Source: Escherichia coli (GTDB taxonomy: Bacteria; Pseudomonadota; Gammaproteobacteria; Enterobacterales; Enterobacteriaceae). Taken from it: a stretch of DNA of 64,000 bases. Positions 18,001 to 21,000 of this stretch are shown piece after piece. The position numbers were made by a program. Where the stretch lies: the NCBI RefSeq assembly GCF_009931435.1, contig NZ_CP043414.1, one strand, 5' to 3'. The stretch's first letter is position 1. Each line of letters begins with the position of its first letter.

Positions 18001-21000
18001 CACCAGCATCTCAAAACCGGATTTGATCTTACCGTCTACCCAGCGGTCGAAGTGCTTAATGCACCAGCCGCCCAGCGGACCTGCAATCATAGAACCGAGG
18101 AACATCGGCATGTCTGCGCCGACGATAACACCCATGGTGGTGATGGCACCGACTACGCCGCCACGTTCGCCGCCTACCAGCTTACCACCGGTATAACCGA
18201 TCAGCAGCGGCAGGAGATAAGTGATCATCGGCCCGACCAGCTTCGCCAGCGTCTCGTTCGGTAACCACCCTGTTGGAATAAATAATGCGGTGATAATACC
18301 CCACGCGATAAACGCGCCGATATTTGGCATCACCATGTTGCTGAGGAAACGACCAAAGCTTTGCACTTTGATCTTAATATCGGATGACATAAAAACACCC
18401 CTTCTTATGTTTGCTGTCGCGCAGGCTGGAAGCCCGAGGTTTTTTGTTAATGTGGCGGCAGAGGTAGCCGGACCTTGTTGATAGTGCGAAATCTGGCACT
18501 GAATCGATCAACTGTCCAGTCGACGGCTTTTTGTGTGATATGAATCACATAAATATAGGGGGTAGAGAGGTAATTGACGTGATGTGCATCACAAAATACT
18601 TGTGTAAAAAAGCAACAAGACGGCGATTTTCGCTAAAAATGGCATTTAAATGTGAGTAATGTCACATTTTTGTTTTGTTAGTTTGTTGAATCTTTGTGAT
18701 CTGAATCACAAGATATTTTCTTACGGCGTTCACCTGATGTGATCTGCAGCATGTTATGCCTTCGTCATAAAATCGTTATGTAACTAAGCAACTCATCACC
18801 TCTAAAAATTATTCTTTGGTGTTATGGCGAGAATCGCGAACCCGAATTATTGTCAAAATATCAGCCTGACTCCCTTCTGGCTGCCAGCCAAAAAACAACA
18901 CCGATAAACGTGAATCCGAGGCAGATATGTTTCTAAACTATTTCGCGTTGGGAGTGCTGATCTTCGTCTTTCTGGTGATTTTTTATGGAATCATCGCGAT
19001 ACATGACATCCCTTATCTGATTGCCAAAAAGCGCAATCACCCCCATGCCGACGCTATTCATACGGCGGGCTGGGTGAGCCTGTTTACTCTGCATGTTATC
19101 TGGCCGTTCCTGTGGATCTGGGCGACGCTCTATCAACCGGAGCGTGGCTGGGGTATGCAGTCACATGTTGCGTCGCAGGAGAAAGCGACTGACCCGGAAA
19201 TCGCCGCACTTTCTGACCGAATTTCCCGGCTGGAGCATCAACTCGCCGCCGAGAAAAAGACTGACTATTCCACGTTCCCGGAGATCTAAATATGGATCTG
19301 TTGATTGTTTTAACTTACGTGGCGCTGGCGTGGGCGGTCTTTAAAATCTTCCGCATTCCGGTAAATCAGTGGACGCTGGCGACGGCGGCGCTGGGAGGCG
19401 TGTTTCTGGTGAGTGGTTTGATTTTGTTGATGAACTACAACCACCCTTACACTTTTACCGCACAGAAAGCGGTGATTGCTATTCCCATCACGCCACAGGT
19501 GACGGGGATCGTGACTGAAGTCACTGACAAGAATAATCAGCTTATTCAGAAGGGCGAGGTGCTTTTTAAGCTCGCCCCGGTACGTTATCAGGCGCGAGTC
19601 GACAGACTTCAGGCTGACCTGATGACGGCGACGCATAATATAAAGACACTGCGCGCGCAGCTCACTGAAGCGCAAGCCAATACCACCCAGGTTTCAGCGG
19701 AGCGTGACCGCTTGTTTAAAAATTATCAACGTTACCTGAAAGGCAGCCAGGCGGCGGTAAATCCGTTCTCGGAACGTGACATCGACGATGCGCGGCAAAA
19801 CTTCCTCGCGCAGGACGCGCTGGTGAAAGGCTCGGTGGCGGAGCAGGCGCAGATCCAGAGCCAGCTCGACAGTATGGTTAACGGTGAGCAGTCGCAGATT
19901 GTCAGCTTAAGGGCGCAGCTTACCGAAGCGAAATATAACCTTGAGCAGACCGTCATTCGCGCGCCGAGCAATGGCTACGTCACTCAGGTGCTGATCCGCC
20001 CAGGTACATACGCAGCTGCCTTGCCGTTGCGTCCGGTAATGGTTTTCATCCCTGAGCAAAAACGGCAAATTGTCGCCCAATTTCGGCAAAACTCGCTGTT
20101 ACGTCTGAAACCAGGTGATGATGCGGAAGTAGTGTTTAATGCGCTACCTGGGCAGGTATTCCACGGCAAACTGACTAGTATTTTACCTGTCGTGCCAGGC
20201 GGTTCGTATCAGGCGCAAGGGGTATTGCAATCATTAACGGTCGTGCCCGGCACGGACGGTGTGCTGGGAACCATTGAACTGGACCCTAACGATGATATCG
20301 ATGCCTTACCCGACGGCATCTACGCCCAGGTGGCAGTTTACTCCGACCATTTCAGCCATGTTTCGGTGATGCGGAAGGTGCTGCTAAGAATGACCAGTTG
20401 GATGCATTATCTTTATTTGGATCATTGAGGGGGGCGGGGGATATTATGGAACTTTGCTCCTTGTAAGGACTAATTATTTTTGCATATTATTTCATCGGCT
20501 GTGATGATTTTTCTTTAATATTCATTATGTTAATAAGTTCGGGATGAGTGTGAACTCATTGGATTTTTTATCCGTCTTGATCTGCCGCAGGATCAGACTA
20601 TACATCGTCGAGATCGCAATGATTATGAATTGTTCCTCTGCGACGATGCTAATCAAAAAAGTGCTGGAGTGCTTTTCCATCTATTGCGATGATGGTTTTA
20701 TTATCTGAAGAATGGCTGTCACATTTAAAAATATATAATTTATAGATCACAATGTAGGTTCATGGAATATATGTATACAACTATTTTTCTCTTCACTTTT
20801 AATTATCGTATTCATTATAACACTAAGTTAAAAAAACTCCTGGAGAGTGAGTTATTAATATATTTTTAAATATAATTAAGTTATTATTCATCGATGCATT
20901 TTATAGAATCATCAATGGCTACAATAGTACTATTAACTCTCCAATTTATATTTTTATTATCATTGCAAATATTAACTGAATCTATATCAATGATTTTTTT

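What the first reader, a model, noticed from the sequence alone, without database searches (positions are those of the whole stretch)
18534..18710. Multiple consensus CRP sites upstream of mtlA
At least three TGTGA-N6-TCACA sites, two of them perfect, lie 145-320 bp upstream of the mtlA start, consistent with the multi-site CRP control described for the mtl promoter. The long, AT-rich spacer also contains additional half-sites.
Basis: partly seen in the sequence, partly recalled or inferred. Interest (0 to 1): 0.25.

Follow-up and report, generated by a model that had tools for sequence, protein, structure and literature searches.

The report
Known CRP site array of mtlA
This is the well-known control region of the E. 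coli mannitol operon, a row of five binding sites for the sugar-starvation regulator CRP. It is real, highly non-random and conserved across enteric bacteria, but it has already been described.

Summary
The interval 18534-18710 contains four CRP sites. Three are perfect TGTGA-N6-TCACA (18534-49, 18651-66, 18695-710) and one is 9/10 (18578-93). A fifth, 7/10 site lies just outside at 18738-53. These four are the only sites with at least 9/10 core matches in the 64-kb window. On a matrix built from 68 independent RegulonDB CRP sites they rank 1, 2, 3 and 5 of about 64,000 positions.

The region aligns without gaps to the E. coli K-12 yibI-mtlA spacer. The sites are the catalogued CRP5 to CRP1 of mtlADR (-58.5, -102.5, -175.5, -219.5, -262.5; Ramseier & Saier 1995). 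Centre spacings of 44/73/44/43 bp are identical to K-12.

A 2026 NAR paper shows that the 43-46 bp pairs also recruit the repressor MtlR, which has no DNA-binding domain, onto DNA-bound CRP. The array is therefore both activator platform and operator.

In my survey of 79 other Enterobacterales loci, plus the window, 72 of 80 have 44/73/44 spacing even though the spacer sequences are nearly randomised. The array stays with mtlA whether or not yibI is the neighbour.

Verdict: interpretation supported, already known, low interest. The one modest new point is that the 73-bp gap and a few spacer blocks are also conserved.

The parts
18534..18549 (.). CRP5, the promoter-proximal CRP site: TGTGATATGAATCACA, 10/10 core, centre 18541.5 (-58.5 from the inferred TSS)
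   Evidence: PWM rank 1 in the window. Aligns to the K-12 site TGTGATTGATATCACA, listed at -58.5. Essential for mtl expression in K-12.
18578..18593 (.). CRP4: CGTGATGTGCATCACA on the + strand, 9/10 core, centre 18585.5 (-102.5), 44 bp from CRP5
   Evidence: rank 5. K-12 homologue TGTGATGAACGTCACG at -102.5. Essential in K-12.
18651..18666 (.). CRP3: TGTGAGTAATGTCACA, 10/10 core, centre 18658.5 (-175.5), 73 bp from CRP4
   Evidence: rank 3. K-12 site at -175.5. Mutating it causes a slight reduction in K-12.
18695..18710 (.). CRP2: TGTGATCTGAATCACA, 10/10 core, centre 18702.5 (-219.5), 44 bp from CRP3
   Evidence: rank 2. K-12 site at -219.5. Essential in K-12.
18738..18753 (.).
   Evidence: rank 94, so not distinguishable by score alone. 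K-12 site at -261.5/-262.5. Dispensable and normally unoccupied in K-12. A candidate of at least 7/10 at 43 bp is present in 38 of 80 loci.
18513..18518 (-). -35 hexamer TGGACA of the mtlA promoter (inferred)
   Evidence: Placed from the published site-to-TSS distances and read from the sequence. Identical in K-12. Conserved across Enterobacteriaceae.
18490..18498 (-). Extended -10 element TGcCAGATT (weak hexamer CAGATT, 3/6), 17-bp spacer to the -35 (inferred)
   Evidence: TGC and AGAT are among the most conserved non-CRP columns. Not found by the consensus promoter scan, because the hexamer falls below its 4-of-6 rule; this fits an activator-dependent promoter.
18391..18483 (-). mtlA 5' untranslated leader; TSS inferred at about 18483 (+/- 2)
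   Evidence: TSS back-calculated from the published centres -58.5 to -262.5 (S1 mapping cited there as Lee & Saier 1983). The leader is moderately to highly conserved. No Rfam family matches it.
16477..18390 (-). mtlA, PTS mannitol transporter IICBA (637 aa)
   Evidence: (NF011663, 1319 bits).
14965..16113 (-). mtlD, mannitol-1-phosphate 5-dehydrogenase (382 aa)
   Evidence: NF002648, 879 bits.
14378..14965 (-). mtlR, the repressor that docks on pairs of DNA-bound CRP dimers (195 aa)
   Evidence: MltR family NF008234, 256.6 bits against a cutoff of 149. Mechanism from PMC13421365.

Best explanation
[quoted passage not shown] Five cAMP-CRP sites (CRP5 to CRP1) sit at about -58.5, -102.5, -175.5, -219.5 and -262.5 from a weak sigma-70 promoter (TGGACA, 17 bp, TGcCAGATT).

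When glucose is absent, cAMP-CRP fills the four strong sites. The proximal site recruits RNA polymerase in a class-I-like way, and the upstream sites are also needed, making this a class III promoter.

The same array is the operator. MtlR has no DNA-binding domain. It bridges two CRP dimers whose sites are 43-46 bp apart (CRP4-5 and CRP2-3, or CRP1-2) and so turns the activator platform into a repression complex. Mannitol transport dephosphorylates EII-Mtl, which pulls MtlR to the membrane and relieves repression. Dephospho-HPr, formed in the presence of glucose, releases MtlR again.

Shown here by computation: the sites, their scores, their exact homology to the K-12 sites, the spacing, and the conservation of the array. 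Taken from the literature for the K-12 allele: CRP binding, the requirement for each site, MtlR docking, and the TSS. Inferred: that this window's allele, which differs only in the N6 centres and spacers, behaves the same way.
For: - Site statistics: 3 perfect and one 9/10 site against 0.05 perfect sites expected per window, and no other site of at least 9/10 in 64 kb.
- An independent PWM ranks the four strong sites 1, 2, 3 and 5.
- Gap-free alignment to the K-12 spacer shows 19 substitutions in 536 bp. None falls in the 50 core bases of the five sites, 5 fall in the 30 N6 bases, and none falls in the -35 or -10.
- The RegulonDB rows for mtlADR match site for site.
- In genomic SELEX the yibI/mtlA spacer is the second most abundant CRP-bound clone class, with 38 clones.
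- Published centres and spacings of 43/44/73/44, the MtlR supershift only on doubly occupied 43-46 bp pairs, and the chromosomal site mutants (PMC13421365).
- An intact mtlA-mtlD-mtlR operon is present in the window.
- The four-site array was found in 78 of 79 other loci from about 35 Enterobacterales genera plus Tolumonas; the Edwardsiella locus L082 was the exception. Spacing is 44/73/44 in 72 of 80 loci including the window. The best chain score was 32-40 of 40 in those 78 loci, 27 in L082, and at most 26 in coding-DNA controls.
- Core bases are 92% identical pairwise, against 40% for N6 and 40-52% for the gaps.
- In a metagenome sample of perfect CRP pairs, 49 of 77 pairs spaced 44 bp flank mtlA. 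None of the pairs spaced 43, 45 or 46 bp does, and non-mtl pairs show no preference for 44 bp.
Against: - Nothing in the data contradicts this reading.
- Binding and regulation were not measured for this allele. CRP4 has two N6 substitutions relative to K-12, and CRP1, CRP3 and CRP5 have one each.
- The TSS is back-calculated from published numbers and falls on a T (18483), so it could be off by 1-2 nt.
- The proximal site at -58.5 is 3 bp off the canonical class I position of -61.5, and the way the far-upstream sites activate is unresolved in the literature.
- CRP1 cannot be told from chance by score. There are 191 sites scoring 7/10 in the window, and about 0.014 would be expected at the right spacing.
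Confidence: 0.95

Rival explanations
1. The CRP array mainly or additionally drives the divergent yibIH operon, whose start codon is at 18927 on the + strand.
For: The sites lie in a divergent intergenic region, and the SELEX authors note that both promoters of such spacers are often CRP-regulated. CRP1 is about 181 bp upstream of the yibI ATG.
Against: A YibI homologue lies upstream of mtlA in only 27 of 79 loci, yet the array with the same spacing and the same distance to mtlA is present in essentially all of them. The distance from CRP5 to the mtlA ATG stays within 145-155 bp in the loci with a verified ATG. No consensus promoter for yibI was found. The site nearest yibI (CRP1) is the weakest and is unoccupied in vitro.
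Confidence: 0.1
2. The palindromes are direct operators for the mannitol repressor MtlR or another specific DNA-binding repressor, and only resemble CRP sites.
For: Historically MtlR was assumed to be a DNA-binding operon repressor. The sites are unusually perfect and regularly spaced, as operator arrays often are.
Against: MtlR has no DNA-binding domain and does not shift the mtl operator on its own. It shifts only the CRP-DNA complex, and it will do so on a foreign malK fragment once the CRP sites there are re-spaced to 44 bp. The sites match an independent CRP matrix at the very top of the window and are top CRP SELEX targets.
Confidence: 0.02
3. The sites are a chance cluster or copies of a repeated or mobile element such as a REP-like palindrome or tandem repeat, with no regulatory role.
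For: In metagenomes many non-mtl perfect 'CRP pairs' are in fact tandem repeats. REP-like elements do occur nearby, in the mtlA-mtlD spacer.
Against: Expected count by chance is 0.05 against 3 observed. The gaps between sites share no similarity and only the half-sites are conserved. No Rfam or REP hit falls in the interval. Conservation extends across about 35 genera.
Confidence: 0.01

Closest known systems
E. coli K-12 mtlADR control region: five CRP sites (Ramseier & Saier 1995, Microbiology 141:1901; RegulonDB) and the MtlR-CRP-DNA operator (Lee et al. 2026, NAR, PMC13421365)
   Same: Orthologous and collinear. The 10 core bases of each of the five sites, the 44/73/44/43 bp spacings, the -35, the -10 and the operon are all the same.
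   Different: There are 19 point substitutions in 536 bp. Five of them lie in the non-contacted N6 centres of CRP1, CRP3, CRP4 (two) and CRP5. No functional difference is expected.
Salmonella enterica and Vibrio cholerae mtl operators
   Same: Both contain adjacent CRP pairs 43-44 bp apart that support MtlR docking. My Salmonella locus L014 has the same 44/73/44 array.
   Different: The spacer sequences are diverged. V. cholerae additionally uses the antisense sRNA MtlS and lacks EII-Mtl sequestration of MtlR.
deoP2, cdd and related CytR-CRP promoters
   Same: A repressor is held at the promoter by protein-protein contact with two tandem DNA-bound CRP dimers, which converts an activator array into a repression complex.
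   Different: CytR is itself a LacI-family DNA-binding protein that also contacts DNA between the CRP sites. MtlR has no DNA-binding domain and reads only the CRP-CRP geometry. The CRP spacing there is different (about 53 bp in deoP2, from my own knowledge).
malE-malK divergent control region (four CRP sites)
   Same: A multi-site CRP nucleoprotein array far upstream of a weak promoter, in a sugar-transport operon.
   Different: Its CRP sites are 34 bp apart and do not recruit MtlR unless re-spaced to 44 bp. It needs MalT as a co-activator (the MalT point is from my own knowledge).

Membership tests
cAMP-CRP binding site | 16-bp palindromic core TGTGA-N6-TCACA (22-bp site) | tested here: met
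   Three sites score 10/10, one 9/10 and one 7/10.
cAMP-CRP binding site | High score on a position weight matrix built from independent, curated CRP sites | tested here: met
   The PWM came from 68 RegulonDB sites with no mtl sites included. Scores are 14.7, 14.3, 12.5 and 10.5 bits against a training median of 6.8, giving ranks 1, 2, 3 and 5 of 63,985. CRP1 scores 6.9 bits, rank 94.
cAMP-CRP binding site | cAMP-dependent binding of CRP protein to the DNA | not testable with these tools
   Shown for the K-12 allele by EMSA and genomic SELEX. This allele has identical core bases.
mtlADR control region of E. coli (five-site CRP array) | Orthologous position: the yibI-mtlA spacer, upstream of an intact mtlA-mtlD-mtlR operon | tested here: met
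   Gap-free 536-bp alignment to K-12. Present in 5404 of 5426 E. coli genomes. Operon genes identified.
mtlADR control region of E. coli (five-site CRP array) | Five sites centred at -58.5, -102.5, -175.5, -219.5 and -262.5 (spacings 44, 73, 44, 43) | tested here: met
   Centres at 18541.5, 18585.5, 18658.5, 18702.5 and 18745.5 give 44/73/44/43, matching.
MtlR-recruiting CRP-pair operator (Lee et al. 2026) | Two adjacent CRP sites 43-46 bp apart centre to centre | tested here: met
   CRP4-5 are 44 bp apart, CRP2-3 are 44 bp and CRP1-2 are 43 bp. CRP3-4, at 73 bp, is the non-recruiting pair, as published.
MtlR-recruiting CRP-pair operator (Lee et al. 2026) | An MtlR-family protein is encoded by the genome or operon | tested here: met
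   Window 14378-14965 (-) matches NF008234 at 256.6 bits against a cutoff of 149.
MtlR-recruiting CRP-pair operator (Lee et al. 2026) | [quoted passage not shown] | not testable with these tools
   Literature only, for the K-12, Salmonella and V. cholerae alleles.
Class III CRP-dependent promoter | Two or more CRP sites upstream of a weak sigma-70 promoter that needs CRP | tested here: met
   Five sites. The -10 hexamer CAGATT matches 3/6 and the promoter is missed by the consensus scan. CRP dependence comes from the literature.
Class III CRP-dependent promoter | Promoter-proximal site at a canonical class I or class II position (-61.5, -41.5 and so on) | tested here: inconclusive
   The proximal site is at -58.5 by the published TSS, 3 bp from -61.5. 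The TSS here is inferred, not mapped.

The most novel reading that the evidence does not exclude
The array may be a rigid, phase-locked nucleoprotein scaffold rather than two independent MtlR-docking pairs. The 73-bp CRP3-CRP4 distance is about 7 helical turns, so those two sites face the same side of the DNA. MtlR does not use this pair, yet the distance is as invariant across about 35 genera as the 44-bp distances. Three short blocks inside otherwise randomised gaps are also conserved: AACAAA at 18682-18687, T6-ACACA at 18601-18611, and a C/G run at 18558-18562. Together these would point to a fixed DNA path, or to an additional bound factor (alpha-CTD, Fis or another nucleoid protein), as the explanation for why the far-upstream sites are essential. 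Lee et al. 2026 explicitly leave that question open.
Probability: 0.3. Interest if true: 0.35.

Novelty: already known. Interest (0 to 1): 0.1.

Why it matters
As an annotation it matters little. These are the textbook CRP sites of the mannitol operon, described in 1994-95, catalogued in RegulonDB and dissected mechanistically in 2026.

The locus is still a good positive control for a scan, because a tool-free reader found a real, functional regulatory array. My comparative results add a small amount. The whole 44/73/44 geometry, not only the 44-bp MtlR-docking spacing, is maintained while the intervening sequence drifts. Perfect CRP pairs spaced 44 bp in environmental DNA are over-represented only next to mtlA. 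That independently supports the published claim that spacing alone gives MtlR its operator specificity, and it suggests a helical-phase experiment on the 73-bp gap.

Tried and rejected
- **Consensus promoter and terminator scan of 18300-19000.** It does not find the mtlA promoter, whose -10 matches only 3/6, nor any yibI promoter. The one + strand hit, at 18384-18411, straddles the mtlA start codon and is no better than the shuffles, so I ignored it.
- **Rfam at permissive E-value over 16000-19400.** Nothing falls in the interval or the mtlA leader. The only hits are sub-threshold REP/naRNA4 matches in the mtlA-mtlD spacer.
- **Repeat or mobile-element origin of the palindromes.** Rejected, because the gaps share no similarity and only the half-sites are conserved.
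- **A sixth CRP site in the long spacer.** TGTGT at 18601-05 with GCAAC as partner scores only 6/10 by my hand count from the sequence, and it is absent from the list of sites scoring at least 7/10. It is 23 and 50 bp from its neighbours. I did not count it as a site.
- **The 7/10 match TGCGAAATCTGGCACT at 18485-18500, over the -10 and TSS.** About 1.6 such matches are expected in 536 bp, so I treated it as chance.
- **The array serving yibIH.** Disfavoured by synteny.
- **The window coming from a non-coli Escherichia species.** Not supported, because 40-44 kb is 99.8% identical to some E. coli strains. The window looks like E. coli with divergent alleles around mtl and an adhesin gene.
- **Failed call.** One search was a malformed literature query and returned an error.

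Full report
**1. What is in the sequence**

The interval lies in the 536-bp spacer (18391-18926) between mtlA (18390..16477, minus strand) and yibI (18927..19289, plus strand).

An exact search for TGTGA-N6-TCACA finds three matches in the entire 64-kb window, at 18534-49, 18651-66 and 18695-710. About 0.05 are expected, and no shuffle out of 100 reached three. Allowing one mismatch adds only 18578-93 (CGTGA..TCACA), so every site with at least 9/10 core matches in the window lies in this 177-bp stretch.

That 57-bp gap is 68% A+T but has no exact half-site, only TGTGT at 18601-05.

**2. Matrix test**

I built a matrix from 68 RegulonDB CRP sites taken from Table S4 of Shimada et al. 2011 (PMC3105977). 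The part I used contains no mtl sites.

- The four strong sites score 14.7, 14.3, 12.5 and 10.5 bits, against a training median of 6.8.
- They rank 1, 2, 3 and 5 of 63,985 window positions.
- The fifth site scores 6.9 bits, rank 94.

The refutation criterion is not met.

**3. Identity with the known sites**

The spacer is present in 5404 of 5426 complete E. coli genomes and aligns to K-12 MG1655 without a single gap.

- Of the 19 substitutions, none touches the 50 core bases of the five sites.
- Five fall in the 30 central N6 bases.
- None touches the -35 (TGGACA, 18518..18513) or the extended -10 (TGcCAGATT, 18498..18490).

The site centres 18541.5, 18585.5, 18658.5, 18702.5 and 18745.5 give spacings of 44/73/44/43 bp. 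These are exactly the published CRP5 to CRP1 at -58.5, -102.5, -175.5, -219.5 and -262.5 (PMC13421365; RegulonDB rows). That places the TSS near 18483 and gives a leader of about 93 nt.

The primary description is Ramseier & Saier 1995 (Microbiology 141:1901) and Figge et al. 1994, cited. In genomic SELEX the yibI/mtlA spacer was the second most abundant CRP-bound clone class, with 38 clones.

**4. How it works**

These steps are taken from the literature for the K-12 allele and inferred for this one.

- CRP is required. A crp deletion mutant does not grow on mannitol and has low mtlA mRNA.
- Chromosomal replacement of CRP2, CRP4 or CRP5 abolishes expression, replacement of CRP3 reduces it slightly, and CRP1 is dispensable and normally unoccupied.
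[quoted passage not shown] It supershifts only DNA carrying two CRP dimers 43-46 bp apart. The CRP1-2, CRP2-3 and CRP4-5 pairs work but the 73-bp CRP3-4 pair does not, and re-spacing malK or CRP3-4 to 44 bp creates binding.
[quoted passage not shown] The window encodes an intact mtlA, mtlD and mtlR. The array is therefore both the activator platform and, through CRP, the operator.

**5. Independent comparative evidence**

A genome scan with the MtlA N-terminus returned 80 loci from about 35 named genera of Enterobacterales, plus Tolumonas.

- A four-site chain was found in 78 of the 79 usable loci, with a summed core score of 32-40 of 40. The exception is Edwardsiella L082, which scores 27. 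Coding-DNA controls score at most 26.
- Spacing is exactly 44/73/44 in 72 of 80 sequences including the window. The remainder differ by 1 bp, apart from L082.
- Mean pairwise identity is 92% for the 40 core bases, 40% for N6 and 40-52% for the gaps. Length is therefore conserved while sequence is not.
- The conservation profile peaks exactly on the half-sites.
- A YibI homologue is upstream in only 27 of 79 loci, so the array belongs to mtlA rather than to yibI.

**6. Is the 44-bp pair specific to mtl?**

I scanned metagenome contigs for two perfect CRP cores 43-46 bp apart.

- Of the 77 pairs spaced 44 bp, 49 flank an mtlA gene. About four more are truncated mtl operators.
- None of the pairs spaced 43, 45 or 46 bp flanks mtlA.
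- The remaining non-mtl, non-tandem pairs are spread evenly over the four spacings (14, 12-13, 13 and 11). Many of the others are tandem repeats.

**7. Rivals**

- A role for the array at yibIH cannot be excluded, but synteny and geometry disfavour it.
- Direct MtlR operators are refuted by the literature.
- Chance or repeat-element origin is refuted.

**8. Novelty and score**

This is already known. It is the K-12 mtl control region in a slightly diverged allele.

The only points I did not find in the papers I read are two. The 73-bp CRP3-CRP4 distance is as invariant as the 44-bp ones. A few short blocks inside the gaps are conserved: AACAAA at 18682-87, T6ACACA at 18601-11, and a C/G run at 18558-62. 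These bear on the open question of why the far-upstream sites are essential, but they are incremental.

Interest is 0.1.

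Noticed in passing
window 18594-18650 (the CRP4-CRP3 gap) and the equivalent region in L003-L082: The 73-bp centre-to-centre distance between CRP3 and CRP4 is not an MtlR-docking spacing, yet it is exactly conserved. 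It is 73 bp in 72 of 80 loci, 72 bp in 4 and 74 bp in 3, even though the gap sequence is only about 48% identical pairwise. At about 7.0 helical turns it places the two CRP pairs in phase.
   Followed up: partly
window 18682-18687; 18601-18611; 18558-18562: Short blocks are conserved inside otherwise unconserved gaps. In mtlA sense these are AACAAA in the CRP2-3 gap, TTTTTTACACA in the CRP3-4 gap, and a C5 run in the CRP4-5 gap. The CRP4-5 gap has a C run of 4 or more in 33 of 80 loci and a G run of 4 or more in 18. Their function is unknown; candidates are a Fis or alpha-CTD contact or a DNA-shape element.
   Followed up: partly
window 18498-18511 (+ strand ACTGAATCGATCAA): This is a candidate Cra (FruR) box lying between the -35 and the -10 of the mtlA promoter. 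It fits the degenerate Cra consensus as I recall it. A Cra ChIP-exo paper reports Cra binding at the mtlA core promoter (PMC5888115). It is only weakly conserved outside Escherichia.
   Followed up: partly
window 16114-16476 (the mtlA-mtlD spacer): There are three sub-threshold Rfam naRNA4/REP-like hits, at 16178-16233, 16332-16368 and 16411-16488. The first lies inside a spurious 430-aa ORF extension of mtlD. The spacer is about 133 bp longer than in reference E. coli genomes, which probably reflects extra REP copies.
   Followed up: no
window 13500-30000 versus 40000-44000 versus 1-14000: Similarity to E. coli is mosaic. The mtl/yibH/rhs-side region is 91-100% identical to K-12 in 500-bp windows, mostly 93-98%. 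The best match of window 16000-21000 among 5,426 complete genomes is only 97.7%. By contrast, 40-44 kb (the yiaT-yiaV region) is 99.8% identical to some strains. The 1-14 kb region, which includes a YadA-like adhesin gene, is at best about 91% identical overall. No K-12 match was found over 8000-13511, the part of that region compared with K-12.
   Followed up: partly
window 18391-18483 (the mtlA leader) and the same region in L003-L082: The 5' leader of about 93 nt is moderately to highly conserved across Enterobacteriaceae and includes a GGGCTTCCAGCC hairpin-like segment. No Rfam family matches it. I did not examine it for structure or sRNA pairing.
   Followed up: no
alignment A1 (window versus K-12), columns of the five CRP sites: Substitutions between the window and K-12 are enriched in the N6 centres of the CRP sites (5 of 30 bases) and absent from the 50 core bases, against 14 of 456 elsewhere in the spacer. 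This is a clear small-scale picture of purifying selection on the contact bases only.
   Followed up: yes
metagenome loci L110, L111, L115, L117, L132, L141, L153, L202 and others: Many perfect TGTGA-N6-TCACA pairs in environmental contigs belong to tandem repeats of 43-46 bp units, often with TGTGAGTCATGTCACA-like cores, and are unrelated to mtlA. I did not investigate what they are.
   Followed up: no
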